Shown piece after piece: positions 13,821-38,210 of a stretch of 40,682 nucleotides of DNA. Where the stretch lies: IMG/VR virus record IMGVR_UViG_3300030061_001844, positions 1 to 40,682 of that record, one strand, 5' to 3'. Source of the DNA: a virus. Taxonomy: Duplodnaviria > Caudoviricetes. The translations under genes were made by a program, and so were the position numbers. Position 1 is the first letter of the stretch, and each line of letters begins with the position of its first letter. The notes below the pieces were generated by a model that saw nothing but the letters and a program-made list of their open reading frames with translations, searched no databases and was not told where the DNA came from.

Positions 13821-14092
13821 TGTAATCCCTCATCAATTTGTTCAGCGCGAGTATCAATCCAATCAGCGTCGCTTGGTGTGAACCAATCGGTAAATCGCTG
13901 ACCGATTATGTGGTAAGGGTCAAGACCAAGCCATTGATAGTTAATCAATTCAAGGTCTTCAATCCACTCATCGCAAGCCGTGACATAAGCCTCGGTGCTT
14001 GAGTTGTAGGTATAACCTGCTCGCTCTTTGTCTTCTTCACTAAGGGATGAATACCATTCAACCCAACTGTTCGATGTGTTTTCGTTTTTCAT
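13817..14092 (-). CDS. Trp-rich acidic hypothetical protein
   Basis: 91 aa; ATGA overlap with the helicase. Confidence 0.7.
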   Translation of the reverse strand: MKNENTSNSWVEWYSSLSEEDKERAGYTYNSSTEAYVTACDEWIEDLELINYQWLGLDPYHIIGQRFTDWFTPSDADWIDTRAEQIDEGLQ

Positions 14093-14099
14093 TTTTCCA

Positions 14100-14185: not shown

Positions 14186-14384
14186 TTCGTGTTAATGTGT
14201 AGATTAGCGCGTAGATAGATACTCAACATCACAACACAACCATGCATGTGTCATAGTTGTTGCGATAGACGCGAGGTGAATGTGATGTATTGATTCAAGA
14301 GCAACGGGTGATATGTCAAGAGCGTTAGTAATCGCGCATACTCGACAAAGGAATAGGATAATTTTGACTGATGAATCAATCACT

Positions 14385-14399
14385 CAACCGTATGGTTGG
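14385..14399. promoter_or_regulatory. Near-palindromic operator-like site CAACCGTATGGTTGG, copy 1
   Basis: Identical 15-mer at 15829-15843; both copies are intergenic. Confidence 0.6.
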
Positions 14400-14585: not shown

Positions 14586-15695
14586 TCAAAGGGTGTCAAG
14601 TGAACCAATGTCAAGGTTGTTGTAGTCCTCATCAGTCATTCTACCGGATGATGTAGGAGTCCAGTCATTCTTAACCAAAGGCCAGTGCCAAGACTGTGCT
14701 TGACCACCAATCACCTTTGAGTCTGCCACTTCTTCGTTGATACCAATGAATGCTCGGAACGCTTCACGGAAGTCATCGGATACAGACCAAGCAAATCGCG
14801 CTGTCCAAAAGTTTCTCTCGGATTCAAGGACAACATAAGCGGCCATTTGAAGAGTGAATCTCTTAGCGGCTTGGTAGTTGCCAGCACCACATAGTTCGGG
14901 GAACCAAGAGCGAGTCTTGTATGTCTTACCGGTCTTTTCATCAGTCCACTTCTTGTTTCGCTTTGGAGCGATACAAAGAACATCAGCGGCAACCTTGAGA
15001 AGTTGAGTATCCCAGTCAATGGCATTCGACAATTGCTTCGGGTTCAATTCCTTTCGACCGGAGAGAGTCATTTCATAACCGTCACCGTTCTTGTTGGTCT
15101 TGTGAAGGACTGCCTTAGCCATGTTGATTTCTTTGTCGGTGACACCTTTGATTGCCAGTTTGACACCTTTGTTCCAATCATCAAGGACAAAGGAAACCTC
15201 GGTAGCGTCTGCCAGTTCTTCTTCTTCTTCATCGTCAAAGTCTTCATCGTCATCAATGCCAGCAGATTCAGTCGAAGTCATGCTGAAATCAATTCCCGCA
15301 TCTTCTTCTTCTTCTTCTTCTTCATCGAAGTGCGAAGCCACAAAGTCGAATGCCAATTGGCACAAGTTGTTTAGGCTCTTTGCTTCTGTCAACATCAGTT
15401 TGAATACTTCAAGGACTTTCACTTTGTCAGTCTTGGCATTGATACCGGTGGTATTGCCTTTCTTGTAGTAAGCGTCGATACGGCTATGTTTGATACCCAT
15501 ATTCTTTGCCAAACGGATGATGAAAGTGGCGTTGTTGGTTGCTTTCGCACTGCCGCTGTTCTTCACAGTCTTTACTTCGTTCATTTTCTCCCCCAATGTA
15601 TTATAGAAAGCCTCGTTGTCTTTAGCGACAACTACCGCTTTGCACATTACACCAAGTGTATTGTTCAGTTCATTCCTCATGCTTGTTTTTTCCAT
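14586..15695 (-). CDS. Hypothetical protein with central poly-acidic tract; first gene of the leftward arm
   Basis: 369 aa, GAGGTAA RBS, own promoter and terminator; DEEEEEED...DDDEDFDDEEEEE. Confidence 0.85.
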   Translation of the reverse strand: MEKTSMRNELNNTLGVMCKAVVVAKDNEAFYNTLGEKMNEVKTVKNSGSAKATNNATFIIRLAKNMGIKHSRIDAYYKKGNTTGINAKTDKVKVLEVFKLMLTEAKSLNNLCQLAFDFVASHFDEEEEEEEDAGIDFSMTSTESAGIDDDEDFDDEEEEELADATEVSFVLDDWNKGVKLAIKGVTDKEINMAKAVLHKTNKNGDGYEMTLSGRKELNPKQLSNAIDWDTQLLKVAADVLCIAPKRNKKWTDEKTGKTYKTRSWFPELCGAGNYQAAKRFTLQMAAYVVLESERNFWTARFAWSVSDDFREAFRAFIGINEEVADSKVIGGQAQSWHWPLVKNDWTPTSSGRMTDEDYNNLDIGSLDTL

Positions 15696-15748
15696 GTCTA
15701 TTACCTCATGACCCTTCTTGGGCTGACTTTCCAGTAAGGTTTAGAGTT

Positions 15749-15762
15749 CCCCTTATAAGGGG
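15749..15762. promoter_or_regulatory. Perfect palindrome CCCCTTATAAGGGG with a TATA-box core
   Basis: Lies about 55-65 bp upstream of ATG 15695, flanked by the inverted repeat GGCTGAC (15721) / GTCAGCC (15781). Confidence 0.6.
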
Positions 15763-15790
15763 TCGAGCCAAAATCGGGTTGTCAGCCTTT

Positions 15791-16054
15791 CGCGCTCTTG
15801 CCGCGAAAAGGAGAGCAAGAACGCGTGACAACCGTATGGTTGGAGGCGCGATGGAATCGCGCCGGAAACCCGCGATAAAGCAACCGCGAAACGCGCTACT
15901 GCGCGACTGTTTCCCATGCGACATAGTGCATAAGCGCGTGGCGATTACCAGCGCGAATGCTTCGCGCTTTACCGCGAGTTCCTCGCGGAGTATTTGCCCG
16001 TCGCGTTAGCCGGAGTCGCGCTCGCGGCGCGACAATTTGCCCTCCTTAACCGCG
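15791..16054. other. CGCG-dense non-coding region at the strand switch (candidate ori, pac site or terminus)
   Basis: 19 CGCG tetramers counted by hand, followed by A/T tracts at about 16070-16111. Confidence 0.6.
15829..15843. promoter_or_regulatory. Operator-like site CAACCGTATGGTTGG, copy 2
   Basis: Identical to 14385-14399. Confidence 0.6.
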
Positions 16055-16155
16055 TGCGAAATACAGATATTTTTTTCGTGGGGGTCAAAAAAAAATTCCA
16101 GCCATTTTTTTATCAACCGCTATGTTCAAGGGTGTGGTTGTCCTCCCATCCACTA

Positions 16156-19100
16156 ATGCGTCCGAGTGTCCGTGTTGTTAAGTCGGTTGACGAGGGACTA
16201 ATCCTCAAGGAAACCAATCAACAGAAAAAAGACAAACGCAAAGCAGAACGCGATGCGGCAAGAAAAGCCAAAAAAGCGGCACGCAAAGCAAAAAAACGCG
16301 GTGAGAAACCACCAAAGCAAGTAAAAGTTGTTGACAAAAAACCCGCCGCGGAGGAAAAATTTGACCCGTTTGAAGGAAAAAATATCGACCCCGCACAAGA
16401 AAAGGCAAGGGAGAAAATAAAAGAGGCGGGTGAAAAAAGACGCGCTGAAAACGCTAAACGCGTAGATGCTTTGCGCGAAAAAGCAAGAAAAAGTCGCGAA
16501 AGAAGAAAGAAAGAACAAGAAGAGTCCGGGTTAAGCCCCGAAGAGTTCCGCGAAATGAAGGAACTTGAAAGACTCGTAGCCGAAGAAAAGAAGGCTAAAA
16601 CTGTCAAAGTAGTTGACCCTCCCGCTAAAGAAGAACCTCCTAAAGAAGAACCTCCTAAAGAAGAACCTCCTAAAGAAGAAAAGCCAAAGACCGTCAAAGT
16701 AGTTGACTCCGCAAAAGATGACAAAGAAGGAAAAGGCGGTAAAACACAAAGAGGTTTCGCGTCTTTAGCACCTTACATGGCTGAATTAGTCAGTCGATAC
16801 AAAGATGAAGAAATAGACGCGACTGAATTTTACGAAGACATAGTTTTCGCTAACAATATGCTTTTGGGTCGTGCTTTAGGACAAGAGAAGGATGAAATGC
16901 TACAAGAGCGCGAAGATGGCTTTCCCGCTATGCTTCACGAACCATTCTTAAACGCGCCTGTTATGATGCATTTGAAGAGGTTGTCGAATGAGTTCCCCGA
17001 ACTCAAAGATGTGCAAAAAGCAGATGAAGAAATGAACGGTAGTTTAGAAAATGCTATGGGCGGAACGCGAGGAATACGCGCTGATATTTCATCCTTCATC
17101 GCAGACCCATTGAATGAGGGCAGACCTCATCAAGAAAAAGACATCAATGGTATTTACAAACTTCTTAACAAATACGACCACCCTCTCGGTGTCACGCTGT
17201 CGGCGGAGATACCAAAGAGTGACCGTATCGTTCCCACTTACAGACCAAGAGAAGCGCGAAAAATTCGTGTTGCTGGTCGAATGCAAGACCCTTCATTTGA
17301 ACAAGAGATGAACCGATTACGCGATGAGCAGATGGAGAACTTGAAGTTTAGAGAAGATAAACGATTTACTACGGACCGCGATAAAGGCGGAGCGAGTAGA
17401 TTTTACGATAAGTTGTTCGGAGAAGGTGAAGTCAACCTAAGAAGAGAAAAAGGACAAGAAGGCCAGTCAAGTTTTCAACTTAAAAACCCTTCATCATCAA
17501 CAACACAATCCATACTCAACCAAGTGCGAGATATTGCGCGTGAAGAATCTGTTGATGAAAAAACCGCTTACAAAAAAATGATGGAGAAGTTCAACGATTA
17601 TATGATTTCATTGACAGGGAACAAAGCGTTCGGAACATCGGGGCGCGCAGGTAGAACTGGACAAGAAATAGAAGTTGGGCGTTCGCCGGACGCAATTACG
17701 CCTTCTATGGTTGATGCCGCGAAACAACTTGGGTTGTCTTCTGCTGTGGCAAACATGCCCGATTTGTTAGTGAGTCGATACATGAAAGACCCTAAAAGTG
17801 CATTCAGTCAAAAAACGCGTAATGAATTGGCCGATGAGTTAGCGGGTATGGGTCAAGAAGGTTTTCACCCAACGCTAATATCTGCTATGGGTGAAGAAGG
17901 ACTCTTGAGTAGTCTATTTGGTGATGAAAGCGCGGTGACTGTCGAGGGTGCTGGGCCGGGTGGTTCACAAGAAGAAGTGGAACAAAGAGCCAGTGAAGCG
18001 CGAAGAGCAAGATTTGGTGGGGTTGCAACTGAATCTTCAATGATGGAACCCGAAGATGAACTCGCGGTTGTTCAAGGTAAAAGAAAATTATCACCATCTC
18101 AACGAATGACACAACTTGAGCGACAATTCAATCAAGGTGATATTGACGAGTATGAATACGAAATGCAACGCGCGGCAATCAATTTAGACCAACACAAATT
18201 AGACTCGGATGCTGAATTAGGTGGCTTAACTGGTAATGATTTCGAGGTTGGTCACGCGTATCACGGTTTGAGTGAAGAAAAACTCATCGAACAATCAAAT
18301 AATTTTGTTGACAACCTCATCGGTATGGCGCGCATAATGCGAGAAATACGACACAAAGCATACGATAACAATGGTGCGGAAACAGACCAAGAAAAACACG
18401 ATGTTGATAAGAAGTTGGAGGCTATTGGTTTAACCGCAGAAAACTTTGTTGCTTTTGGTAATATTGAAAACGCAACATACGAAGACAAGCAACGCTACAA
18501 CAAACTCGATGAAATCATAAGCCCGGAACAATTAGTTAATACAGCAAAAAAAGGTGATAAGCCAAAAATGAAGACTATTGCTGGCACAGGCACTTTAGCA
18601 GTAATGCTCCCTATTATGACTTCGCGGCTGAATCGACAACACGACATGATGAAAGATATTGGAATGTCAAATGTTGATTTAGTGAAAGCGGCGATGAAAT
18701 ACGCTAATGCTGATATGGGTGTGAATGGATACAAGGAGGCTTTTGCTTCGTTAGGGGCGCAAGCACAAAAAGGTAAATTGAACACATATCCAATATATCG
18801 TTTGTTGCAGTATTTGAGGAAAAAAGGATACCGTGAAGCACTCGATGAAGCGCACCATCAAAAAGTCGAAGAACAACAACGAAAGTTTGCAAAGAACCAC
18901 ACTGCGCGTCAAGCAATGAAAGAAGAGGCTAAATTCACACCTGCTTCGGAATACGATATTGAGGCAGGTGCGCCCGAACACATGGAACATATACTCCACG
19001 ACAAAGAAAAGTGCCTTTCATGTCACGAAGACCGATTTGGCACAAGAGATGCACCAACAGCGCGAGCGCATTCACCAGTTAAGGGTGATAAATCACCCTT

Positions 19101-22100
19101 TGCTCACAAGTCTATCACACTCCCGCAATTTACAAATTACAAAAAACGCGGACAAGATTTCCCATTAGATGTCACCGGCTCTACTGAAAATGAAACTTCA
19201 CTCGCCGCTATATTGAGGCACATTTACCCCGAAGATGACAGATACAACCACAAAAAGTTGATGAGTCGAAAACAAAAATATCTTGATAATCCAAAATTAA
19301 ACACTTACGAAGGGTTCATCAAACCTACAACTCGACAGTTCAAAAATAAAATCAAGCAAGCGGTTATCACAGGTCACCCACGCGCGGCTAACATTTTCAA
19401 GAAGTTTGGACTTTACCGAACAAAGGAGAACGGAATAGCAACTGGCCCAGCAGGGATGAGCAACAAAGAGTTGGTTGCTTCTTCATTCTTCATGAACAAC
19501 GACGATTCAATCGACAAGCACCAAGAATCAATGCGTAAGAGAACACTTCTATCGACGCGTTTCAATGCGATTACTGATGCTATGCATTTCATGGAAGAAC
19601 TCGCAGACGGCGACTATGGTAGCAAAATCAAACCGGGTGCGCTAAAGAGTAGAGCCAACCGAATCGCGTTATTGGGTGAGATGATAAATGAACCCACTAA
19701 AGGTATTCAAAAAGAAAATAGAAAGATTGAGAAAAGAAAGCGGGAAATTGATACTTACAAAAACCTATATCGACAATATATAGATGATAAAATGGCTTAT
19801 GATGCTAATTTAGCAAAAACGAAACCAACATATCAATTGTTTAATGAATTGACAGGAAAAATTCGCGGTGAATTTGAAACAAAAGAAGATGCAGAAAAAG
19901 CAATCAAGAATATGAAAGATAAAGACAACAAACCCGATACTTACATGCAAAGTATCCACTCGGTTCAAGAACAACGCGGTGAATATGATTCACCGGGTCA
20001 AATAGCAATGATTGAAGCACAGGCTGATGAAATCGACAAGAAATATGGTAAAATGTTGATGCTCCGTAAGAAGAAATTGAGAGAGATAAAATCATACGAA
20101 AAGAAAGCCGCTAAGTTGAAAGACGCGAGCGAAGATAACATCAATCGAACAAATGAATACATGCTTGGCGCGTTTATCAATTCGGGCGATAAGATGGCTA
20201 ACATATTCACCAAGATGAAAAAATCACCGGAGGGTGTAAGTCAACACGCTTTGATGGGTATGCTCGCTGAATTGCATGATGATATGTATGGCGATGATGA
20301 TTATGATTCGGTGCTTAGAGGCGACGCGAGTGGGAGAACGGACAAAGACTTCACTCATTCACTAAGCAACTATAAACTCGGTAGAATGGGCGAAATGGGT
20401 GGAACGGGTGTTATGAGTTTGACCAATAACAAAGCCCTCCCGCGAATCAATTCAATCAACCAACTGCTCGCTCATCGCATTCAAATGGGATTCCCTCTCA
20501 CAGAAGAAGATATTGAGCGCGCTAAGGGTATGTTGCATGATGCTGATATGGCGGATACTGTTGACAAAGAAGATTATAATGAGTGGTCGAAAGGTTTGAC
20601 CATAGATGATGATGTTGATTTCAATATGTCCGAATTAGAACATGAGCATCATGATGATTCCGAAGACGACTTGGGGTTGCTAACAGAAGAAGAGGCGGCG
20701 CGAAGAGAACAAAACTCACACTTTACAAAAGGTAGTGAAAAGGCGATAGAGAACGGTGACATTGAAGCCCATAATTTAGTATCCAATTGGAGAGGTAATG
20801 CACCAACTTTGTGCGGTGTATGTCACGGACATCGGTTCGTGACAAGAGATGAAGCGGTATCATACATTCGTCATCGCATACCCGGTATGGAAGGTGTAGG
20901 TCGCGAGAGTTCAAAGATGAACAACTATATCGCTAACAAAATGAGGCCGCGTGGGTTTGCTTCTTACGATGAACACCCTATGGCTGATGAAATGGACCCG
21001 AATGAACACGAACAATTCGCGTGTCCAGCCTGTGAGCATTCAAGTGACTATGTTCAAGGTGGTAAATGTAGCAACGGTCTTTGTGGTGATTGTTTTGGCA
21101 CAGGTGAGCGCGACCCAACGGATGATGAACATATCCAAGAAGGATACATAGACGCGGAGGGAAATAAAATTGATGGAAAAAACCACCACTATTCGCATAA
21201 TGGAATGGTGGGTGAGAAGTTCGATTACCTCAACCAACTTCTGCTAAGACATGCAGAAATGGCACAATCGGGTGAAATACCGGATTATTTGAAAGATATA
21301 GTCAAACCTCAATCACCAGTGTGGGAGCAGTTTGATAAGCATGTAGGTTCGGGTAAATTTCAAACATTTGAAGATGAGCGTGAAGCGCGCAGAAAGAAGA
21401 AATTAGAACCGTTGGTGATTGACCCTAACGCGCCGGAACTACCCGCCCCACCACGCGCGAGAAGTCAATTCCGAATCGAACAACCCGACGAAGGTGGTAT
21501 GCCGCAGATTGACTTCGATATGAGTGAAGAAAAACCTTTCCAACTAAATATTGTGAACAATTTAGCAATGCAAAAGCATCATGAGATATTTTTGAAGAAG
21601 CATCTTGACATTCTATACAAATCGGCTCTTCAAGGTCAACCCCAAATGAAAGAAGAAATTAACGAATTATACGCCAGCATCGTTAATGACCCAGCACTAC
21701 AAGACATTCACAATGACGAAGACCACCATTTGATTGAAAAAATACACGAACTACAAGAAATCGCGGATGCGAATTATGTTGATGATATTAGCGACATCGC
21801 GAGTTTGAGTGCTAAAGAGAGAAAGGCGATGCGCGCAAAACGAAGACAGTTGCCTGTTGACGAAAACGGTGATTTGCAATTGACTATGGATGATGTGTTT
21901 GGTGGAAATGCGCCAATGTCTTTCAACGCCTTCGATAAATATACTCCTAAACACGGACACATGCAAACAGAAACCGAAATACGAGAAGGGTTATTTGAGC
22001 CGGGAGAAGACAATCAACCAAAACCAGTGACAATGAAGCAATTGAGAAGTTTTTTCATGGGGCGACCGGATGTATTGAAAATGCTCAATAGAATTGAAGC

Positions 22101-23259
22101 CAGTGAAAAATACAAATCGGAGAGTGCTGAAAAAATTAAAAGCGCGCTTGATAGTGTTGAAAAACCATTAGTGGCGCGAAAAACAGGCAATATGTATAGC
22201 GAATCACTCAATGATATTTTGAAGCAGTTTGGTGAAAAACCAATGACACAAGAGATGGGTTCTTATCAATTGACTTACAGTGATGAAGCGTTAAAAGCAT
22301 TTAAAGAAGCGGGAGCAACAAATGTTAATTCATTGATGACTGTCAAAAACAAAAATAATCTAAATCGTGCATTAGATGAAGGATACACCCGCGAAAGAAG
22401 TGCAACGATGAAACCGTTATGGCAAGAGTATGTCATGCGAAAAGCACTTCAACACTTCATGTCGAATGTGAATAACCCTCTTCAATACCCAACAATACCA
22501 GCAGGTATCAATCAAAATAACTTCGCTGAAATGGTGGGAGAAAACAGCGGGTTGTTTCAATTGATGAAAGATGAGGCCGCGAAAGTTGCTGGTTATGAAG
22601 ACGAAGAAGATTTGGAAAAGAAACTCAACATGTCAACAAGCCCGACTGTCGGCGGTGTAAAGTTGAATGTTAACGAGTTTAAGGCAGATGTTTTGAAGAA
22701 TGCGACACACGAAGACTCACATCAACTGCCGATGGGTTATATTCGATACGATAAGAAGGGTAAAGGCAAAATGGTTGCTAAAGACGCTGAAACTATACTG
22801 AATGAAAGTCAAGAACAATTGTTAAAACCTAATGATATGAAGAAATACGAAAACGCGATAAGAACTGTCAACTACAACATGAGGCCAAACTACATGAGAA
22901 TGAAAGAGATTAGGAGTGTATTGCATGGCGAAGACGGCAAACACGACGGCTACGATGGTTATGAAGAACTTGCAACAGCATTTACCAACAAAGCATTACC
23001 GGCGGAACAACAAGCGTTGTTAGAAACCAGTGGTCCGTTGTTGAAATTATCTCATCGACACCTTACTCCAATTTCTTTTGCTGACGCGCAATCGTATGCT
23101 TTAGCCGCGGAAGAAAATAAGAAATTCCAAGAAGGACTGAAAGCGCGACGAGAAGGAACATTGTTAGGTCCAGTGCCTATCACTCAACCAATTCAGCAAC
23201 CAATTCAACAACCAATTCAACAACCCCAACAACAAATTGATTTCAACATGGATTCTTGA
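16156..23259 (+). CDS. Giant (2367-aa) charged protein with Cys/Zn motifs; possibly virion-internal
   Basis: Likely start ATG 16156 (MRPSVRVVKS); the upstream TTG extension runs through the non-coding CGCG tract. K/E-rich; CLSCH, CGVCHG, CPAC and CGDCFGTG motifs. Confidence 0.85.
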   Translation: MRPSVRVVKSVDEGLILKETNQQKKDKRKAERDAARKAKKAARKAKKRGEKPPKQVKVVDKKPAAEEKFDPFEGKNIDPAQEKAREKIKEAGEKRRAENAKRVDALREKARKSRERRKKEQEESGLSPEEFREMKELERLVAEEKKAKTVKVVDPPAKEEPPKEEPPKEEPPKEEKPKTVKVVDSAKDDKEGKGGKTQRGFASLAPYMAELVSRYKDEEIDATEFYEDIVFANNMLLGRALGQEKDEMLQEREDGFPAMLHEPFLNAPVMMHLKRLSNEFPELKDVQKADEEMNGSLENAMGGTRGIRADISSFIADPLNEGRPHQEKDINGIYKLLNKYDHPLGVTLSAEIPKSDRIVPTYRPREARKIRVAGRMQDPSFEQEMNRLRDEQMENLKFREDKRFTTDRDKGGASRFYDKLFGEGEVNLRREKGQEGQSSFQLKNPSSSTTQSILNQVRDIAREESVDEKTAYKKMMEKFNDYMISLTGNKAFGTSGRAGRTGQEIEVGRSPDAITPSMVDAAKQLGLSSAVANMPDLLVSRYMKDPKSAFSQKTRNELADELAGMGQEGFHPTLISAMGEEGLLSSLFGDESAVTVEGAGPGGSQEEVEQRASEARRARFGGVATESSMMEPEDELAVVQGKRKLSPSQRMTQLERQFNQGDIDEYEYEMQRAAINLDQHKLDSDAELGGLTGNDFEVGHAYHGLSEEKLIEQSNNFVDNLIGMARIMREIRHKAYDNNGAETDQEKHDVDKKLEAIGLTAENFVAFGNIENATYEDKQRYNKLDEIISPEQLVNTAKKGDKPKMKTIAGTGTLAVMLPIMTSRLNRQHDMMKDIGMSNVDLVKAAMKYANADMGVNGYKEAFASLGAQAQKGKLNTYPIYRLLQYLRKKGYREALDEAHHQKVEEQQRKFAKNHTARQAMKEEAKFTPASEYDIEAGAPEHMEHILHDKEKCLSCHEDRFGTRDAPTARAHSPVKGDKSPFAHKSITLPQFTNYKKRGQDFPLDVTGSTENETSLAAILRHIYPEDDRYNHKKLMSRKQKYLDNPKLNTYEGFIKPTTRQFKNKIKQAVITGHPRAANIFKKFGLYRTKENGIATGPAGMSNKELVASSFFMNNDDSIDKHQESMRKRTLLSTRFNAITDAMHFMEELADGDYGSKIKPGALKSRANRIALLGEMINEPTKGIQKENRKIEKRKREIDTYKNLYRQYIDDKMAYDANLAKTKPTYQLFNELTGKIRGEFETKEDAEKAIKNMKDKDNKPDTYMQSIHSVQEQRGEYDSPGQIAMIEAQADEIDKKYGKMLMLRKKKLREIKSYEKKAAKLKDASEDNINRTNEYMLGAFINSGDKMANIFTKMKKSPEGVSQHALMGMLAELHDDMYGDDDYDSVLRGDASGRTDKDFTHSLSNYKLGRMGEMGGTGVMSLTNNKALPRINSINQLLAHRIQMGFPLTEEDIERAKGMLHDADMADTVDKEDYNEWSKGLTIDDDVDFNMSELEHEHHDDSEDDLGLLTEEEAARREQNSHFTKGSEKAIENGDIEAHNLVSNWRGNAPTLCGVCHGHRFVTRDEAVSYIRHRIPGMEGVGRESSKMNNYIANKMRPRGFASYDEHPMADEMDPNEHEQFACPACEHSSDYVQGGKCSNGLCGDCFGTGERDPTDDEHIQEGYIDAEGNKIDGKNHHYSHNGMVGEKFDYLNQLLLRHAEMAQSGEIPDYLKDIVKPQSPVWEQFDKHVGSGKFQTFEDEREARRKKKLEPLVIDPNAPELPAPPRARSQFRIEQPDEGGMPQIDFDMSEEKPFQLNIVNNLAMQKHHEIFLKKHLDILYKSALQGQPQMKEEINELYASIVNDPALQDIHNDEDHHLIEKIHELQEIADANYVDDISDIASLSAKERKAMRAKRRQLPVDENGDLQLTMDDVFGGNAPMSFNAFDKYTPKHGHMQTETEIREGLFEPGEDNQPKPVTMKQLRSFFMGRPDVLKMLNRIEASEKYKSESAEKIKSALDSVEKPLVARKTGNMYSESLNDILKQFGEKPMTQEMGSYQLTYSDEALKAFKEAGATNVNSLMTVKNKNNLNRALDEGYTRERSATMKPLWQEYVMRKALQHFMSNVNNPLQYPTIPAGINQNNFAEMVGENSGLFQLMKDEAAKVAGYEDEEDLEKKLNMSTSPTVGGVKLNVNEFKADVLKNATHEDSHQLPMGYIRYDKKGKGKMVAKDAETILNESQEQLLKPNDMKKYENAIRTVNYNMRPNYMRMKEIRSVLHGEDGKHDGYDGYEELATAFTNKALPAEQQALLETSGPLLKLSHRHLTPISFADAQSYALAAEENKKFQEGLKARREGTLLGPVPITQPIQQPIQQPIQQPQQQIDFNMDS
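16625..16680 (+). repeat. 15-bp tandem repeat (about 3.7 copies) encoding KEEPP
   Basis: CTAAAGAAGAACCTC x3 plus a partial copy. Confidence 0.95.
23185..23225 (+). repeat. 12-bp tandem repeat encoding QPIQ
   Basis: CAACCAATTCAR x3 plus CAACC. Confidence 0.9.
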
Positions 23260-23912: not shown

Positions 23913-24149
23913 ATGGGTTGGTTGTTTAAAACACCAAGCGATGATGCAACAGAAGCGACTTTACGCGCGTTGCATACACAAAATACACTCGATACTTATT
24001 ATGAAAAGGGCAAAGCGTTGATATTTTGTATAATTACAGGTGTAGTCACCGCGTTGAGTGTGTCTTGGTTTGAACAAGCAAGCGATGTGAGCGTTTGGGA
24101 AAGCACAGTTGAGTGGTTTTACGAAAAACTTCGCGGGTGGGTCAACTAA
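23913..24149 (+). CDS. Small single-pass membrane protein
   Basis: ALIFCIITGVVTALSVSWF; Trp-rich amphipathic C-terminus. Confidence 0.8.
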   Translation: MGWLFKTPSDDATEATLRALHTQNTLDTYYEKGKALIFCIITGVVTALSVSWFEQASDVSVWESTVEWFYEKLRGWVN

Positions 24150-26873: not shown

Positions 26874-27542
26874 ATGGCGGAGCGTATAACAAGGGCATCT
26901 TGTAATTTCTGCCAAGACCCCGACCGTGACGGTATAGAAGAAATGTTGAGGGCTGGGTTAATCACCGCTAAAGATTTAGACAAACAAAAAGGATGGCGAG
27001 AAGGCACTGCTGACCGTCATTTTAGAAACCACATGGGTGAATACCACATGTCTTCAAACAGTGAGTGTAAATTATGCACATCACCAAAGCGCGAAAACTT
27101 AGAGTTGGCGTATTTTAACGCGTCAATGACCGTGGCTGAAATAGCAGAAGATATGCAGATGCCCGATTCAAGTGTTTATCATCATCTTAAACATCATCTC
27201 AAACCTGTTGTTCAAAAAGGTGCGGCTGACCTCATTATAGTTGAAGCAGGTCAAGAGATGCAAAGCATACGAAACAATTTATCCCGACTCAATGGTGAAC
27301 TTGGTCATTTTCTTGATGACGCAGACCGCAACGACCCTCAATATGTTCGCAACATAGTATCTTTACACAAAGAAGTTCGCGAAACGGTCAAAGACATCAT
27401 GAGGGTGCAAGAGCGCGCGGCTGGAACTACTAACGAAAACATGACTGCACAGACCATAAACATACTCAAAGTTGAATTAGCGAAGGAGTCACCCGAAGTT
27501 TGGGCGCGACTTCGCGGCAAGTTGATTGGTGGTGACGAATAA
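26874..27542 (+). CDS. Tandem CxxC...HxxxH Zn/HTH protein; candidate terminase small subunit or regulator
   Basis: CNFC...RHFRNHM and CKLC...HHLKHHL repeats, then a coiled coil; upstream of terL in the same operon. Confidence 0.6.
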   Translation: MAERITRASCNFCQDPDRDGIEEMLRAGLITAKDLDKQKGWREGTADRHFRNHMGEYHMSSNSECKLCTSPKRENLELAYFNASMTVAEIAEDMQMPDSSVYHHLKHHLKPVVQKGAADLIIVEAGQEMQSIRNNLSRLNGELGHFLDDADRNDPQYVRNIVSLHKEVRETVKDIMRVQERAAGTTNENMTAQTINILKVELAKESPEVWARLRGKLIGGDE

Positions 27543-30597: not shown

Positions 30598-32359
30598 AAG
30601 TTGGGAAATAGAATGGAATAGCAGTATGATTGAACACGGTCGCGACTTAGGAACTATGGAATTTATTTTCGCAAAAGGCGGCAACCTCTCGGATATGAAC
30701 TATGTTATGTTCGATGTTCAAGACAACAGTTGGGAACCACTTATCAAGGCTGTCGCGGAGCGCGACAACTCTCACCCCGACATTATTCGGAAGAATGCTG
30801 AACCGTTCATGGCTAACCGCGACCAACGAGCCGCGCAACCATTCATGGGAACAGCAGTGACAAGTCCTCGTCAAGCAACGCAACAATACAACACAGCACA
30901 GCGAATGTCCAACCTCGCTAACTACGACGCTGACCCTACCGCAATGAACGCTATGCGCGCCGGAAAATACGGAACAGCCGCAGGTAAAGGTCTTGCCGCC
31001 GCAGGTCGCGGTATCATGGGAGCAGGTCGAAAAATGGGCGAGATGGGCGGTCGTGCTATGGCTGGTGCAAAAGATATGGGTGGTCGCGCTCTTCAAGCAG
31101 TAAAAGACAGTGGTATGGGCCAACGCATGAAGAACTTCATGGGTGCGGCAGGTCGTGGACTTAGCGACTTACGACATGCCCCAGCCGCGGCAAAACAAGC
31201 ATTTAGAGATAGTCGCGCAAGACGCGAAGATGAAGAACGAAGAAATGCACTTGAAGGTGGTCTTGGTCGCGGGTCAAAAATGGAAGCAGAAACCGAGCGA
31301 AGAATGGTTCCGGGTAGTCAAAACTTTGACGCAAACATGGATAGAGCGCGGGGAGCCATCAATCAACAACTTGCTCGCGATTTCAATGTTAATCCAAATA
31401 CTAACAAAAAAGGTAAGCCGACTGAATCAGTTCAAGATGCCATGCGTCGTGAAATTCAAGAAATTGGTGACAGACGCGCTCAACCAAAAGAAGGTTTCTT
31501 CGCTGGTATGAGCCGCCGCGGACGCGAGCGACGCGCTGGCAATCAAGCACAAGCAGAAGGAGCGGCATACGCGCCTTCTAACATGGCAACCGATGAGCCG
31601 GAACGAGTGCCTCTCCCTGCTGGACCTTCAACTGACGCGGAGCAAGCGGCAAACGCAGACAAAGTTCCCGAACCGGAAATTGAGTTTGATATGACCGAAC
31701 CGGAAACAGGAACACCACCACAAGACGCGGGGCAACCAATGAAGGTTGAAGCCGAAGAGAGCGCATTAACTGATAAACAAAAACAGGCTATGGAGATGTT
31801 TGACAAAGTGCAAGAAAACAAGCGCAAGCGAATGGCTATGGAAGGTGGTGCAGAAACCACCGGCGACCTATTCGTTGACGACGAAGGTGAAGTCATAAAC
31901 CCAGCACAAACGGAAACCGCTACGGCTACTGAACCATCTTTCGGACAAAGATTTGCTACCGAGGCTGGTATGAAAATGGGCGCACCTGCGGGTGATAGAG
32001 TCCGTGGTGGATTAGACAAAGTGTTCGGCCAACACCAAAAAACTCCATTCGCTGACCGCGATGCGGCAATGCAAGCCATGTTGCAAAGTGGTGTAGGAAC
32101 AAAAGGGATGACTACTGCTGGTAAGTTCAGTGGCAAATCAGCACAGGCTGTTGAAGCGGCTTTGATGGAAATGGGCTTTGGCCCAGCAGAAGCAAAAAAT
32201 GTCGCGCAACAAGCAGAAGCAGGTAATCCCGATGCAAAAGAAATTGTTGAAGAAGCAATAGATTTCGACATGGGTGAAGATGCTATGGGAATGAAACTAA
32301 GTGAAGACAACCACGCGGCATCATGGGATTCTGTTTTGAAAGGACTTAATGTGCGGTGA
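30590..32359 (+). CDS. Ala/Gly/Met-rich, largely disordered protein
   Basis: 589 aa; GGAGG RBS; overlaps the terL start. Confidence 0.85.
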   Translation: MVESWEIEWNSSMIEHGRDLGTMEFIFAKGGNLSDMNYVMFDVQDNSWEPLIKAVAERDNSHPDIIRKNAEPFMANRDQRAAQPFMGTAVTSPRQATQQYNTAQRMSNLANYDADPTAMNAMRAGKYGTAAGKGLAAAGRGIMGAGRKMGEMGGRAMAGAKDMGGRALQAVKDSGMGQRMKNFMGAAGRGLSDLRHAPAAAKQAFRDSRARREDEERRNALEGGLGRGSKMEAETERRMVPGSQNFDANMDRARGAINQQLARDFNVNPNTNKKGKPTESVQDAMRREIQEIGDRRAQPKEGFFAGMSRRGRERRAGNQAQAEGAAYAPSNMATDEPERVPLPAGPSTDAEQAANADKVPEPEIEFDMTEPETGTPPQDAGQPMKVEAEESALTDKQKQAMEMFDKVQENKRKRMAMEGGAETTGDLFVDDEGEVINPAQTETATATEPSFGQRFATEAGMKMGAPAGDRVRGGLDKVFGQHQKTPFADRDAAMQAMLQSGVGTKGMTTAGKFSGKSAQAVEAALMEMGFGPAEAKNVAQQAEAGNPDAKEIVEEAIDFDMGEDAMGMKLSEDNHAASWDSVLKGLNVR

Positions 32360-33768
32360 TACGCGTGCAATCATCTTTGTCACTTGAAGCGATTGAAGAA
32401 ATCGACTTTGAAGTGGCAAAGCGCGATTTTAAATTCTTCTTTGAAGAGATTCTTGGATTTCAACTTTCACATCATCACGAACGCTGGTATAATAATCTTG
32501 AAACACGAAAGCGATACTGTGTCAAAGCGGCGCGTGACCACGGTAAGTCAACGCTGTTCCTCGGCTACATGTTATGGAAAACGGCATTCAATCCAAAGAC
32601 CAAAGCAGTATTGATTTCACACAGTCTTCATCAGTCGATACATCACATGCGGACACTCAATGATTTGATTGACGGTGTGCCTTTTCTTGCTAAGATGAAG
32701 AAAGCCGATTCATGGTCTAAGACATTTTTTGGTTTTTCTAATGGTTCTAATATTAGCGCGAAGTCTGTTGGTGGTGCTATTCGTGGTATCCACCCCGACC
32801 TCATTCTTTGTGACGACATTCTGTGGGGAACAACCGATACAGAACTTGCTCGCGTCGCATCATGGTTTTACGAAGTTCTTGTCCCGACGCTCCACCACAC
32901 CTCAAAACTGATGATAGTCGGGACACCATTTACCCCAACCGACCTTTATACAGAACTTGAAGGTCGTGACGGTTATCTTGTTGAAACATACCCTGCTATC
33001 AATGCACAAGGAGTTGCATTATGGCCGGAACGCTGGGACTTAGAATCATTAGATGCGCGCAGGGCTGATATGCCAGCAATTGCATTTGCGCGTGAATACT
33101 TGTGTGAGCCGATGGATGATGTATCGAGTCTATTCCCTTCAACCGTATTGCAATCAGCAAAAGACAGCACACTCAAACTCATTGACCGTGAAGTTGGCGA
33201 CCCCGACGACCAATACTTCATCGGCTGGGACCCTGCTATTTCGAGTGACCGAGCGGCTGACTTCACCGTTATGGTGGTGCTTCGTCGCCCATCAACTAAC
33301 CCCGAATTGCTTGAATTGGTTCATGCAGTTCGTCGTAAGAATATGGATTTCCGAACACAGATTATGGAGATTCAAAGACTCAACGCGAAGTTCAATCCCG
33401 ATGTGATTGAACTTGAAGCGAACAACTTTCAGCGTGTATTCGCTACTGAACTACGCGCAGATACAGACCTACCCATCAAAACATTCATCTCCACGCGCCA
33501 ACGCCGTGAGTCACTTCTCATGGGATTAGTTCTGCGATTTGAAAATGAGCAGATGAGATTGCCGTGGGGCGACGACCGTTCGCGAACAATGATGAGTGAA
33601 TTAGAACGCGAACTAATGATGTTCGGTATGTCGAAAAAAGGTAAGTTGGACAGCATTGGTCGCCATGACGACTTTGCTATCGCTCTCGCATTGGCTCATT
33701 GGGCTACCACGGAGTTCCGTGAACGAATCGTTGACTTAGATGAAATAATGGAGGGGTTGTTAGATTGA
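32356..33768 (+). CDS. terL: Terminase large subunit
   Basis: Walker A ARDHGKST, Walker B ILCDD, coupling motif VGTP, nuclease IGWDPA and HDDFAIALALA. Confidence 0.95.
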   Translation: MIRVQSSLSLEAIEEIDFEVAKRDFKFFFEEILGFQLSHHHERWYNNLETRKRYCVKAARDHGKSTLFLGYMLWKTAFNPKTKAVLISHSLHQSIHHMRTLNDLIDGVPFLAKMKKADSWSKTFFGFSNGSNISAKSVGGAIRGIHPDLILCDDILWGTTDTELARVASWFYEVLVPTLHHTSKLMIVGTPFTPTDLYTELEGRDGYLVETYPAINAQGVALWPERWDLESLDARRADMPAIAFAREYLCEPMDDVSSLFPSTVLQSAKDSTLKLIDREVGDPDDQYFIGWDPAISSDRAADFTVMVVLRRPSTNPELLELVHAVRRKNMDFRTQIMEIQRLNAKFNPDVIELEANNFQRVFATELRADTDLPIKTFISTRQRRESLLMGLVLRFENEQMRLPWGDDRSRTMMSELERELMMFGMSKKGKLDSIGRHDDFAIALALAHWATTEFRERIVDLDEIMEGLLD

Positions 33769-34979: not shown

Positions 34980-36360
34980 TTTGTCCGACGAAACAGCATT
35001 CATTGATGCTATTTTGAAAAATACAATTCAAGGAGCATCTTTTGGTGACGCGCCCAAACCTATTCAAGAAGGACAAGGCACAGCAAACGCTAATCCAACA
35101 CCACCTAAACCAAATGAAATCGAAGAAGAAGAAAATAAAAGAGAAATGGCTCAAGAAGTTGCTCAACAACTCAAGCGTTCTCAACCTAATGGTGATTGGT
35201 TCAACACTATGTTTGGTCGCAATGCTGGTGACTTAGTGAAGGATTTACGGATGGCGCGCCGTGTTAACAAAAGTATGCGCGATGCTATTGATGAAGCCAT
35301 TGATGCTATACGCATCGCAAAGAAACAAGAAGTCGAAGCAACTTTGCAATCAATAGAGTGGATTGGTAAGCACGACAAAACAGTTCGTAATTTAGGTATC
35401 AGCGACCGTGACCTCCAAGCATTGCGAAAACACGGCGTATCGCGAGAATACGCATTAAGAAGAGCGTGTGTTCAATGGGAAAAAGCCAACGACACTATCA
35501 GTAAATTACTTCTCATTGAAGGTGAGTTTGACGATAATCAACGACAGATGTGGGTTGATGCTCAACAACTCAAAAAGAACGCGAAAAAAGAGTGGAGGAA
35601 TTGTCTTCATTCTATTGACAACATCAAGAAGACTGATGCTATTTTCCTTGCAAAAGCCGCGAATATTCTTGAAGAGCGTGGTCCTTTACCAAGCAATGAG
35701 ATTTTCAACAGTATGCAAGGAACAACTCATTTAACAACTCAAAAACTATCATCTTTGTTTAAGATGCATGGTGTTGAATACGACATAGAGAAGGTTGGTG
35801 TTGGATGGGGACTTGTTCGCGACAACACTGTGATTTTCAAAGATGTATGGGCTTACGCCGCTGGTTTCCTCGACGCTGATGGCTACATCACTATCACTAA
35901 GCGTCTTGAACCAAGAGCAGGTTTCATCGCGACAGGTGAGCGAGGTAAGTTGCATTGTGAGCAATTACATAAAGCACTTGGGTGTGGCGTTCTTCAAACA
36001 GATTTAAAAATTCATAAAAACAGCAGACGAACACAACACCGCTTACAATTTTACAGCGAAAATGATTTGCGCAAATTGATGAAAGGTATTACAAAACATC
36101 TTCGTATGAAGAAAGGACAGGCCAATGCGGTCATTGAATTGCTCGATATGCGCGGTCGTAAAACTGACATTATCAAATCACGCCGCGACGAACTTTACCG
36201 TATTGTCAAATGGCTCAATTGGAAAGATGTTCCCGACAAGCGTGAAGAACTTTTGAAGGAGTGGAACATTGATGAGGTGGGAGTTCGTGCCATGTTTAGT
36301 CGGGACGGTGAAACCCTTCGTCTTCTTGACGATGCGAACCGACTTGTGGAGATGATGTAA
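34969..36360 (+). CDS. Helical/winged-helix protein fused to a C-terminal LAGLIDADG domain
   Basis: WAYAAGFLDADGYITI motif after about 290 aa of N-terminal region; AGGTGA RBS before TTG. Confidence 0.85.
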   Translation: MKIDLSDETAFIDAILKNTIQGASFGDAPKPIQEGQGTANANPTPPKPNEIEEEENKREMAQEVAQQLKRSQPNGDWFNTMFGRNAGDLVKDLRMARRVNKSMRDAIDEAIDAIRIAKKQEVEATLQSIEWIGKHDKTVRNLGISDRDLQALRKHGVSREYALRRACVQWEKANDTISKLLLIEGEFDDNQRQMWVDAQQLKKNAKKEWRNCLHSIDNIKKTDAIFLAKAANILEERGPLPSNEIFNSMQGTTHLTTQKLSSLFKMHGVEYDIEKVGVGWGLVRDNTVIFKDVWAYAAGFLDADGYITITKRLEPRAGFIATGERGKLHCEQLHKALGCGVLQTDLKIHKNSRRTQHRLQFYSENDLRKLMKGITKHLRMKKGQANAVIELLDMRGRKTDIIKSRRDELYRIVKWLNWKDVPDKREELLKEWNIDEVGVRAMFSRDGETLRLLDDANRLVEMM

Positions 36361-38210
36361 TGGCAGAAGAAAAGGGCTTAGTGGGGCGTTTCTTATCAAG
36401 ATTGACAAAGCCATTCAGTAGGCGAACAACACCCGAACCAATGATGCCTTTGTGGAAAACGGGCATACAAGAACCTGTCCTTGTTCAAGGTGTGTCAATT
36501 CCGGCACTTTACGCAACAGTTCAAGAATCTATTATTTTGCGAACAACCATCAATACACTATGTCAAGAGATTTTTCGTCGCGGGTATTATTGGGAAAAGA
36601 AATTTCACAAGAAATGCACAAACTGTGGTGAAGAATACCAACATGATACTGTTGAAGAATGTCGAATATGTGGGAATGAAGAGTTCGACAGCCCCGACGC
36701 TGACCAAATCATATATCCGCGTTGGTTGATGAAACAACGCAACAGTATGGACCAATCATTTATTGAAGTCATGAAAGAGATTGAATGGGACTTAGATATT
36801 GTCGATGACGCTTTTTTACTACTCATCAAAGAATATTTCATTGACCCAAAGACAGGTGAGATTGAATTTTTCCGCGTCAAAGAATTAGTTCGTGGTGACC
36901 CGACTTTCATGCGTATTGTTGCTGACAAAGCAGGTAAGCGCGGAGGGCGATACCTTCTGTGTCCTGTTCATCGCGACAAAACCTACCCACACAACGGCGA
37001 CCATCACAAGTGTGATGTTGACGGGTGTGGCTTACCTCTCCAAGATGTTCACTACATCAACACCGCTGGTAGCGGAAAGACGCAGTATTACATTGAGGGT
37101 GAAGTGTTGCACCTTTCTAAATTCAACCCGTCTAAGTTGTATGGTCGCTCACCAGTCGCAAGTATGTGGCGACAAGCACAATCACTCACAGCAATGGACA
37201 ATTACATTTACCTCGCGTATCAAAAGAGAAGAATACCACGCGGTGTTCTCGCAATCACCACTGATAATATCCAATCAACAGCATCTTTTTGGAAAGGTGC
37301 AGAAGAAAAAATGGAACGCGACCCTCATTATATCCCGAAAGTTGGTGTTGAATCAGCATCGGGGCGTGGTAAAGTTGAGTTTGTGCGTTTCATGGATAGT
37401 CTTGATGAGATGCAATACGCGCAAGTTCGTGATGAAATCCGAATGCGTATAGCGGCTTTCTATGGTGTATCTAATGTATTCATGATGGATGCTGGCAAAT
37501 CCGGCGGATTGAACAATGAAGGAATGCAAATACTTGTCACAAACCGCGCTGTTGAATCGGGACAAAAGTTGTATTCACGCGAATTGTTCCCAAGAATGCT
37601 TGACCAAATGGGTGTTGAAGATTGGTGTTTGACGCTATATCCAAATGAAGAAGAAGATGAGATTACAAGACTACGACGCGATGAACAAGAAGTGAACATT
37701 GCACAGCGTATGCAACAACTTGGTTTCTTACCGGAAATGACAGAAAACGGTGGAAGCGATATTCGATTTACTTATTCAAAACCCGACCCACAACAAGAAG
37801 CCATGCAACAACAAGGCGGTGCGATGGGCGGTGGAATGCCACCGGGCGGAATGCCGCCGGGTGGCGGTATGCCTCCACCTATGCCGCCGGGGGGCGGCGG
37901 GATACCTCCACAGGGTGGGGGCGCGATGATACCACCGGGGGTAGGGGCTTCTCCACCGGCTGGTGGAGCGTCCCCTCCGGGCGGTGGTCAAATCATGATG
38001 ATGGAGAAAGGTGGAGCCATAGGTCTTGGTGAAAGTCAAGGACTGCGCGACCGTGGACCTGCACCCATCAGTTCGGAAACTCAACAATCGGGTGCGCCTT
38101 CATCAAAGAAAAATCAACGCGGGAGCGAAAAGACACCATTAGAGCAAGCACTCGATAGTGTTCAAGCCGCGAAAGACCCTACAAGTAAAAACAAAGAGAG
38201 TGGTTTTTAG
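36360..38210 (+). CDS. Portal protein with Zn-ribbon insertions and Pro/Gly-rich tail
   Basis: Near terL; LYGRSPV, IPRGVL and IAAFYGVS portal-like motifs; CTNC..CRIC and CPVH..CDVDGC insertions. Confidence 0.85.
   Translation: MAEEKGLVGRFLSRLTKPFSRRTTPEPMMPLWKTGIQEPVLVQGVSIPALYATVQESIILRTTINTLCQEIFRRGYYWEKKFHKKCTNCGEEYQHDTVEECRICGNEEFDSPDADQIIYPRWLMKQRNSMDQSFIEVMKEIEWDLDIVDDAFLLLIKEYFIDPKTGEIEFFRVKELVRGDPTFMRIVADKAGKRGGRYLLCPVHRDKTYPHNGDHHKCDVDGCGLPLQDVHYINTAGSGKTQYYIEGEVLHLSKFNPSKLYGRSPVASMWRQAQSLTAMDNYIYLAYQKRRIPRGVLAITTDNIQSTASFWKGAEEKMERDPHYIPKVGVESASGRGKVEFVRFMDSLDEMQYAQVRDEIRMRIAAFYGVSNVFMMDAGKSGGLNNEGMQILVTNRAVESGQKLYSRELFPRMLDQMGVEDWCLTLYPNEEEDEITRLRRDEQEVNIAQRMQQLGFLPEMTENGGSDIRFTYSKPDPQQEAMQQQGGAMGGGMPPGGMPPGGGMPPPMPPGGGGIPPQGGGAMIPPGVGASPPAGGASPPGGGQIMMMEKGGAIGLGESQGLRDRGPAPISSETQQSGAPSSKKNQRGSEKTPLEQALDSVQAAKDPTSKNKESGF

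What the first reader, a model, noticed from the sequence alone, without database searches (positions are those of the whole stretch)
15791..16111. 19 CGCG sites in about 265 bp at the divergence point: possible methylation-controlled origin or packaging site
Seen: CGCG at 15791, 15802, 15822, 15847, 15858, 15871, 15885, 15892, 15902, 15935, 15952, 15963, 15973, 15984, 16002, 16017, 16023, 16028 and 16051. Six of the 18 spacings are 10-11 bp (one helical turn). The flanks are otherwise non-repetitive and are followed by T, A and T tracts. Established analogy: GATC clusters at E. coli oriC and the phage P1 pac site are read through Dam methylation. Inference: a CGCG-based equivalent.
Basis: partly seen in the sequence, partly recalled or inferred. 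Interest (0 to 1): 0.78.

Follow-up and report, generated by a model that had tools for sequence, protein, structure and literature searches.

The report
CGCG-coded packaging start of archaeal virus
In a virus that likely infects marine archaea, a dense run of the short word CGCG lies beside a spot where independently assembled genomes of related viruses begin at exactly the same base, so it is likely the signal where the virus starts packing its DNA, possibly read through the host's methyl marks on CGCG.

Summary
The 19 CGCG sites are real and far beyond chance. The window belongs to a group A magrovirus (likely host: Poseidoniales archaea). The array is conserved by motif, not sequence, in all 21 relatives found through a CGCG-free flanking motif, and a near-complete 103-kb relative has only one. 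Of 32 related contigs that cover it, 9 begin at exactly the same base (window 15838), inside a conserved palindrome CAACC-N4-GGTTG, and 16 of the 19 sites lie just right of that base. This marks a physical DNA end, most likely a pac-type packaging start. An origin has no independent support. CGCG is also 1.8-fold enriched in coding DNA and evenly spaced genome-wide, yet nearly absent from the adjacent early gene (1 seen, about 94 expected in 9 relatives). It is rare in hosts and in distant magroviruses. Published SMRT data show m4C at CGCG in Poseidoniia. But a sister clade has the same cut with a TAGCG array, and distant clades use other repeats, so P1-like methylation control is plausible (about 0.3), not shown. 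There is no 10.5-bp phasing. I found no description in print.

The parts
14385..14398 (.). Site A: second copy of the palindrome CAACC-GTAT-GGTTG, downstream of the CGCG-free gene; no array beside it and no contig start seen here
   Evidence: present 1.4-1.5 kb left of site B in 7 of 7 loci that reach so far, in G001 and in L564/L565
14586..15695 (-). 369-aa first early gene (P0001): two folded domains and an acidic linker, no known family; almost free of CGCG in every relative checked
   Evidence: 1 CGCG seen against about 94 expected in 9 genes; no family or fold match
15734..15764 (-). Likely early promoter with a TTATAAG box (15749-15762); the same element precedes the clamp-loader gene of the replication operon
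   Evidence: second copy in contig 15 of run X5, beside the start of that gene; G001 20242 and 102292; function inferred
15768..15781 (.). Conserved left box CCAAAATCGGGTTG, the start of an imperfect inverted repeat 15777-15833
15829..15842 (.). Site B: palindrome CAACC-N4-GGTTG; the inferred DNA end lies between 15837 and 15838, the DNA running rightwards
   Evidence: 9 of 32 related contigs start at the base matching 15838; run X7 contig starts at 15839; distant relative L530 starts at the homologous base
15791..16054 (.). CGCG array: 3 sites left and 16 right of the inferred end; commonest unit TCGCGC/GCGCGA, often as inverted pairs 11 bp apart
   Evidence: 13-20 sites per 265 bp in 21 of 21 loci
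16006..16067 (.). Right block conserved in sequence (TTAGCCGGAG ... CAATTTGCCCTCCTTAACC ... GAAATACAGA); a recognisable form persists in distant clades
16070..16111 (.). T7, A9 and T7 tracts; similar tracts in relatives; would bend DNA (established property of A-tracts, not tested)
16120..16132 (+). Conserved CTATGTTCAAGGG just before the structural arm; likely promoter element
   Evidence: inference from position
16156..23259 (+). 2368-aa protein of no known family, first gene of the virion arm (the open frame starts at 15994; the ATG at 16156 aligns with relatives' starts)
26874..27542 (+). Zn/HTH protein with a long helical C-terminal part, conserved in all clades: candidate small terminase (unproven)
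   Evidence: only weak hits to small terminases (5 of 63 members, best E 0.002; rank 25, E 2.3)
32356..33768 (+). Large terminase
   Evidence: phrog_38, E 2e-59
36360..38210 (+). Portal protein

Best explanation
The CGCG array lies directly right of a conserved palindrome at which related viral contigs begin, and it is likely the recognition part of the virus's packaging-start (pac-type) site: a viral DNA-binding protein, probably the small terminase, would bind the repeated TCGCGC/CGCG units, the large terminase would cut at 15837/15838, and DNA would be pumped into the head rightwards. Shown: the array, its conservation by motif, the exact contig starts, the genome-wide enrichment and even spacing of CGCG, and its absence from the neighbouring early gene. 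Inferred: that the end is made by terminase, that the far end is variable (headful), and which protein binds. The same reader likely also sees single CGCG sites along the genome, which would explain why close pairs are kept out everywhere except here and why host DNA (about tenfold poorer in CGCG for its composition) would be a poor substrate. The host's orphan m4C methylase likely marks these sites; whether the mark gates the cut as in P1 is open (about 0.3).
For: Exact starts: 9 of 32 records, from 8 data-set ids and about 7 distinct viruses, each followed by different sequence, so a shared k-mer cannot fix the base; X7 contig at 15839; L530 in a distant clade. One-sidedness: 0 of 8 loci found from the left-hand motif stop at the cut; 9 more contigs fade out 13-901 bases left of it. 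One array per genome: 19 against a next-best 7 in 103-kb G001. Architecture as in SPP1/SF6, where the box over the cut is conserved and the flanking repeats differ (PMC4737164, passages): here TAGCG, ACGCG, GTTTAGACG, ACATTTGTGC and CCCATAGCAC arrays fill the same slot. Genome-wide: 298 CGCG in 44 genes against 169+-10 in codon shuffles that also forbid the absent motifs; pairs 5-25 bp apart at 0.34-0.52 of expectation outside the array in 4 of 6 viral contigs (0.66 and 0.80 in the other two), against 1.6-2.2 in three host samples. In the TAGCG clade that motif is also enriched genome-wide (3.6-3.7 against 0.55-1.3).
Against: No raw reads were available, so the end is inferred from assemblies. 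Contig depth steps up right of the site in only 2 of 7 runs (X1, X2; one study, X1 possibly the source); X3, X4 and X7 are higher on the left, X5 peaks over the array and X6 is nearly flat. Left-arm-only contigs may be under-represented in the virus collection, which weakens the one-sidedness. A headful mode does not explain why the first early gene is CGCG-free. The small terminase is not securely identified, and G045 has similar HTH helices but avoids CGCG. SF6 small terminase binds its pac repeats with little specificity (PMC4737164), so repeats at a pac need not be read base by base.
Confidence: 0.65

Rival explanations
1. Fixed genome ends (cos-like with a 4-base 3' overhang, or a long terminal repeat starting at 15838). 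The left arm's end, with the TATA promoter and the CGCG-free gene, would be packed last and injected first, as in T5 first-step transfer or T7 gene 0.3 (recalled), its product disarming a CGCG-directed host activity before the rest enters. The array would still be the terminase-binding half of the site.
For: A symmetric cut in CAACC-N4-GGTTG followed by end polishing gives exactly the observed start (sequence logic). It explains the CGCG-free, acidic first gene and the inward-pointing early promoter. X1 depth stays high for 15 kb to the right, which a long repeat would also give.
Against: No contig was seen ending at CAACC from the left (0 of 8; X7 and X2 left contigs stop 64 and 96 bases short). 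None ends within 2.5 kb right of the array. No ThaI-family nuclease in 151 genomes of the host order. Restriction would not select for CGCG enrichment.
Confidence: 0.22
2. P1-like methylation switch (compatible with the best explanation): the array is a sink and sensor for the host's m4C CGCG methylase, and terminase cuts only once replication slows and the sites become fully methylated.
For: The motif equals the host's documented target: an MGIIA genome with one orphan type II methylase and CGCG marks (PMC9516812 text and supplements); Poseidoniia genomes with m4C CGCG and no restriction gene listed, one with an M.ThaI-like enzyme (PMC8919816 supplement). A conserved N4/N6 methylase occurs in 35 of 61 genomes of the order (35 of 39 of 1.8 Mb or more, 0 of 22 smaller). 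No such enzyme in G001. The virus has removed five other 4-base palindromes entirely but kept this one.
Against: The sister clade has the same palindrome and cut with no CGCG in its array. Distant clades avoid CGCG and use other repeats. The specificity of the methylase I found was not tested, the exact host is unknown, and no modification calls exist for this virus.
Confidence: 0.3
3. Replication origin with iterons between divergent operons; the DNA ends would be initiation nicks or breaks.
For: Position at the divergence point, A/T tracts, hairpin potential (z -4.6 against dinucleotide shuffles), a local depth peak in run X5.
Against: Skew follows the coding strand. Hairpin excess is not conserved once the motifs are kept intact (z below -2 in 7 of 18 arrays). 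The array is GC-rich, and exact one-sided contig starts are the usual signature of packaging ends. An origin could overlap the site without being the reason for the array.
Confidence: 0.12
4. Transcriptional control region: palindromes A and B are operators (perhaps for P0001) and the array insulates or times the early and late promoters; the end at B is incidental or a site-specific nick.
For: Two palindromes flank the first gene and lie upstream of two early units, their spacers mostly co-vary within a genome, and promoters face outwards on both sides.
Against: It does not account for ends at B but not at A. A nick should give ends on both sides.
Confidence: 0.1

Closest known systems
Phage P1 pac site (seven TGATCA/G hexamers; Dam methylation promotes cleavage; PMC10028697, passages)
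   Same: Cluster of a host-methylated 4-base palindrome around a packaging cut; unequal groups on the two sides (3 and 16 here).
   Different: Archaeal virus; m4C CGCG rather than m6A GATC; 13-20 sites with loose flanks; intergenic, not inside the terminase gene; precise cut in a palindrome; genome-wide enrichment, spacing and a motif-free gene; methylation dependence untested.
SPP1/SF6 pac (boxA, boxB, boxC; PMC4737164, passages)
   Same: Conserved element over the cut, repeats that differ between related phages, promoters in the region, HTH-type small terminase candidate.
   Different: The repeat is a 4-6-base word also spread over the whole genome; the site lies 11 kb from the candidate small terminase gene.
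Halovirus phiH1/phiCh1/ChaoS9 pac (PMC6471424, passages)
   Same: Archaeal head-tail viruses with headful packaging from a GC-rich motif; their large terminases are among the phage-collection hits (about 25% identity).
   Different: Their pac lies within terS; no motif array described in the passages read.
E. coli oriC GATC cluster with SeqA (recalled)
   Same: Dense cluster of an orphan methylase's site.
   Different: No origin evidence; the host chromosome lacks a CGCG cluster.
Magrovirus group A / Apasviridae (PMC5434244, PMC12999244)
   Same: About 103-kb genome, opposed replication and virion arms, PolB, clamp loader, thermosome, SNF2 helicase.
   Different: Termini and packaging signals are not described in the texts read; genomes are reported only as circular or terminally redundant assemblies.

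Membership tests
Magrovirus group A (Magrovirales) | Head-tail module (capsid, protease, portal, large terminase) in a 90-110 kb genome with opposed arms | tested here: met
   Terminase and portal in the window; capsid and protease in collinear relative G001, 102,931 bp
Magrovirus group A (Magrovirales) | Archaeal-type replisome (PolB, clamp loader, primase, clamp, MCM, ligase) | tested here: inconclusive
   PolB, clamp loader, ERCC4 nuclease and a weak primase hit in G001; clamp, MCM and ligase not recognised by Pfam/PHROG; these genes lie outside the window
Magrovirus group A (Magrovirales) | Thermosome subunit and SNF2 helicase (group A markers, PMC5434244) | tested here: met
   SNF2 at window 3-1046; TCP-1/cpn60 in G001, 31-40% identical to archaeal thermosomes
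Magrovirus group A (Magrovirales) | Phylogenetic placement with reference magroviruses; Poseidoniales host | not tested
   No reference magrovirus appeared among the listed phage-collection hits; host inferred from gene content, marine source and shared scarcity of AGCT and CTAG
pac-type headful packaging site | Fixed first cut on one side | tested here: met
   9 of 32 contigs start at one base; assemblies, not raw reads
pac-type headful packaging site | Variable second end and terminal redundancy | tested here: inconclusive
   No fixed left-hand end seen; depth step in 2 of 7 runs only
pac-type headful packaging site | Bound by small terminase, cut by large terminase | not testable with these tools
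   Candidate protein only
P1-type methylation-gated pac | Clustered sites of a host methylase at the cut | tested here: met
   CGCG m4C in the likely host group from PMC9516812 and PMC8919816
P1-type methylation-gated pac | Sites methylated in viral DNA and cleavage dependent on it | not testable with these tools
   No modification data; a CGCG-free array in the sister clade argues that it is not family-wide
Iteron/methylation-controlled replication origin | Strand-skew turning point independent of coding strand | tested here: not met
Iteron/methylation-controlled replication origin | Helically phased repeats | tested here: not met
   no 10.5-bp phase in 19 pooled arrays

The most novel reading that the evidence does not exclude
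This magrovirus clade has turned the target of its host's orphan methylase into a genome-wide self code: CGCG is written evenly along the virus at about ten times the host's composition-adjusted level, packed densely at the single packaging start, kept from clustering elsewhere and erased from the immediate-early gene. A viral reader uses the density and m4C state of these sites to tell viral from host DNA and mature from replicating DNA. A sister clade has re-keyed the same system to TAGCG.
Probability: 0.3. Interest if true: 0.88.

Novelty: new variant of a known kind. Interest (0 to 1): 0.74.

Why it matters
Magroviruses are abundant, uncultured viruses of a dominant surface-ocean archaeal group, and their genome ends and packaging mode are not given in the texts I read. 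This fixes one end to the base across clades, which sets genome orientation and can be checked in existing virome reads. The three-part CGCG pattern (enriched and evenly spaced, one dense array, one empty gene) shows selection on a 4-base word that other magroviruses avoid. It offers a direct test of what a widespread orphan archaeal m4C methylase does and whether a virus exploits it, and would extend methylation-gated packaging beyond P1 if confirmed.

Tried and rejected
Helical phasing: not supported in pooled arrays. Conserved ssDNA or RNA structure: no Rfam match; folding excess inconsistent once motifs are held fixed. A terminal repeat spanning sites A to B: no contig starts or ends at A, and depth there is low, not doubled, in X2. 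A short repeat covering the array: no contig ends just right of it. A shared far end of the long contigs: 4 examined end at different places. A host oriC-like CGCG cluster: 8 triple matches and no long run in complete G035; one tandem repeat in G031; a four-site pattern in 1 of 10 methylase-bearing genomes. A viral CGCG methylase: none in 8 CGCG-rich records, only one of them near complete. A ThaI-type nuclease: not found in 151 genomes searched; other CGCG nucleases were not searched. Function of P0001: no family, solved-structure or fold match (best Z 3.9). Fold of the HTH protein: inconclusive; the wider structural search was still running and was not collected. Searches used loose patterns and returned mostly chance hits (1 of 119 loci with an array; 2 of 120 true sites, both running through the cut). 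One search found no relative, only 3. One search gave no record titled Poseidoniales; host genomes were reached through the class of one hit. No RNA holder listed. Five contigs that start inside the right block (L485, L504, L506, L507, L522) were left out of the count of 32; four start within 13 bases of each other and I read them as breaks at a block shared between viruses.

Full report
Observation. The 19 CGCG sites and their spacings are exactly as reported. The window has 345 CGCG; the next densest 265 bp hold 7, and random placement never gave more than 13 in 5000 trials; dinucleotide shuffles of the region reached 19 in 6 of 5000. The array lies between a leftward gene (14586-15695) and a rightward 2.4-thousand-residue gene, where the coding strand switches.

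What the DNA is. The window encodes a large terminase, portal, SNF2 and other helicases. Its terminase has 80 listed relatives at 76-98% identity in viral contigs of up to 104 kb. The collinear, 98% complete relative G001 carries PolB, a clamp loader, a thermosome, a capsid protein and a prohead protease. Thermosome plus SNF2 are group A magrovirus markers (PMC5434244, first quarter of the text and passages), and opposed arms match the ICTV profiles (PMC10768690 and PMC12999244, whole texts). The host is therefore likely Poseidoniales; I did not build a tree. The window has no ACGT, AGCT, CTAG, GATC or GTAC at all and lacks several 5- and 6-base sites.

Conservation. 15 of the 16 contigs matching the large gene have 13-20 CGCG per 265 bp just upstream; the sixteenth starts right of the array. 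All 21 loci found with a CGCG-free flanking motif have the array. G001 has one array in 103 kb (19; next best 7). The middle aligns poorly, so the word is kept and not the sequence. The flanks are conserved: a TTATAAG box, CCAAAATCGGGTTG, the palindrome CAACC-N4-GGTTG (site B) and a right block. The TTATAAG element recurs before the clamp-loader gene and is likely an early promoter. A second palindrome (site A) lies 1.4-1.5 kb to the left in all that reach it. The commonest unit is TCGCGC/GCGCGA (115 of 285 sites in 19 arrays kept of 24), often in inverted pairs 11 bp apart; there is no 10.5-bp phase.

A physical end. Of 32 records that cover the array's right block (27, plus L263, L265 and L510 and L564 and L565), 9 begin at exactly the base matching 15838, 2 begin inside the array, 9 end 13-901 bases to the left and 12 run on for more than 1.2 kb. 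The 9 come from 8 data-set ids and about 7 viruses and continue with different sequence, and the shared stretch is shorter than usual assembly words, so a graph break is unlikely (inference). A contig of this virus in run X7 starts at 15839. In distant clades the site reads CCCATAT-G, and L530 starts right after the TAT. None of 8 loci found from the left motif ends at the cut, and none starts at site A. Against this: only assemblies were available, and contig depth rises to the right in X1 (34 to 56-62) and X2 (18, falling to 4-7 over the first gene, then 26-31) but not in X3, X4, X5, X6 or X7. The tool warns that contigs cannot show ends or levels, so depth is at best a weak, mixed hint. The cut is the strongest result; pac versus fixed ends is not settled.

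CGCG across the genome. In 44 window genes CGCG occurs 298 times against 169+-10 in 40 samples of synonymous-codon shuffles that also forbid the absent motifs; GCGC, which overlaps it, is up 1.4-fold and most other palindromes are down. Outside the array, pairs 5-25 bp apart are at 0.41 (window), 0.49, 0.34 and 0.52 of expectation, 0.66 and 0.80 in two more contigs, and CGCG ranks first or second most dispersed of about 120 words in 5 of 6; three host samples give 1.6-2.2. The gene between sites A and B has 1 CGCG against about 94 expected in 9 relatives, and 0 in two more near-identical ones; it is the largest gap in the window (994 bp), G001 (1433; next 511) and G058 (1323). Among 79 analysed of the 80 loci, all 42 close ones have 5.5-14 CGCG per kb, while 34 of 37 distant ones have 2.1 or fewer; L521, L522 and L546 are exceptions. 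Observed over expected from base composition is 2.3-3.5 in six close contigs, 0.0-0.5 in ten distant ones and 0.32 in pooled stretches of ten methylase-bearing hosts.

Other clades, other words. L499, L500 and L503 keep the palindrome and right block, and L500 starts at the cut, but the array is about 20 TAGCG/CGCTA with no CGCG; TAGCG is enriched 3.6-fold genome-wide in that clade only. L510 uses ACGCG. Distant clades have GTTTAGACG, ACATTTGTGC or CCCATAGCAC repeats in the same slot, mostly confined to it. So the slot is family-wide, the word is clade-specific, and methylation of CGCG cannot be a family-wide requirement.

The host side. SMRT studies report CGCG methylation in MGIIA genomes and in some tailed-virus genomes (PMC9516812, passages and supplement rows: one orphan type II methylase in SHIPPO_PRO_101) and m4C CGCG in Poseidoniia genomes that list no restriction gene, one with an M.ThaI-like enzyme (PMC8919816, passages and supplement rows). 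I found a conserved N4/N6 methylase, whose homologues are named Poseidoniaceae, in 35 of 61 genomes of the order; that it is the CGCG enzyme is inferred, not tested. No ThaI-family nuclease was found in 151 genomes, and no such methylase in the CGCG-rich virus records. The complete chromosome G035 has no CGCG cluster, so there is no host oriC analogue for the virus to mimic, and the array would be unique in an infected cell.

Mechanism. Most likely (0.65) the region is the packaging start: a viral protein binds the repeated units right of the palindrome and positions the large terminase, and packaging runs into the virion arm. The conserved Zn/HTH protein at 26874-27542 is the candidate reader, on architecture and weak hits only. 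Even spacing elsewhere fits selection to keep the dense signal unique while marking the genome as self. The empty gene is not explained by headful packaging; it fits fixed ends with first entry of that gene (0.22), or a need to transcribe it from DNA whose CGCG sites are bound or methylated. P0001 has no recognisable family or fold. A P1-like gate (PMC10028697, passages) is an add-on at about 0.3. An origin (0.12) lacks independent support.

Comparison and novelty. It works like a pac site of the SPP1/P1 kind (PMC4737164, PMC6471424, passages); membership in the methylation-gated type is untested. Searches for CGCG with Marine Group II and methylation (0 papers), magrovirus with CGCG (1 paper on methanogen viruses, listing only), Poseidoniales virus termini (listing) and phage enrichment of orphan-methylase sites (listing) found no description; PMC11706807 has no 'termini', 'headful' or 'origin of replication' and PMC7111524 no mention of archaea. 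PMC11033074 (passages) lists archaeal CGCG methylases only. Zhou 2023, Nishimura 2017 and Xu 2023 were not read, subscription papers are not searched, and supplements of the magrovirus papers were not opened. Four look-ups in earlier scan notes returned nothing. T5, T7 and oriC/SeqA comparisons are recalled.

Verdict. Real, conserved and functional; a new variant of a known kind; interest 0.74.

Noticed in passing
window 1-40682: Complete absence of ACGT, AGCT, CTAG, GATC, GTAC and of CCWGG, GCWGC, GAGAC, GTWAC, CTCAG, CAGAG, CCAGA, CCTGA and many 6-base palindromes. The avoided set differs between relatives (TCGA, CTAG, GTAC, ACGT vary; AGCT is absent in all), a possible fingerprint of host range.
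   Followed up: partly
window 14586-15695: Fast-evolving first early gene (15-69% identity among relatives whose other genes are far more conserved), with an acidic linker and no known fold; flanked by two copies of the palindrome and nearly free of CGCG.
   Followed up: partly
window 14315-14398: Site A has its own conserved left context (GCATCAAGAATCGTGCGTGCTTGACA-like in G001, L124, L133, L141, L314) and lies upstream of the next early operon; the palindrome's spacer is reversed in G010, G011 and at site A of G001.
   Followed up: partly
window 13822-14095: Runs X3-X7 skip 272 bases, removing the 91-aa ORF 13817-14092: a strain-level gene deletion.
   Followed up: no
window 16156-23259: Giant first gene of the virion arm (2.2-2.4 thousand residues, 29-55% identity among close relatives, CxxC motifs, no family hit); possibly an ejected core protein.
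   Followed up: no
window 24149-24871: Very conserved 240-aa protein with a P-loop-like GPTQVGKT motif (seen in the G001 homologue) and no Pfam, PHROG or NCBIfam hit.
   Followed up: no
G049, G051, G052 (L624-L627): CGCG-poor distant relatives encode their own N4/N6 methylases; G049 has two and retains some GATC.
   Followed up: no
G045 94168 (oriented as): A CGCG-poor 118-kb relative has a small local group of 5 CGCG and lacks the right block searched for.
   Followed up: no
   Followed up: partly
G031:C1:68655-68753: Short tandem array of CGCG-containing units in a candidate host genome.
   Followed up: no
window 34969-36360: Gene between terminase and portal with an HNH-type hit (phrog_5046), matching the inserted nuclease reported for magrovirus structural modules.
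   Followed up: no
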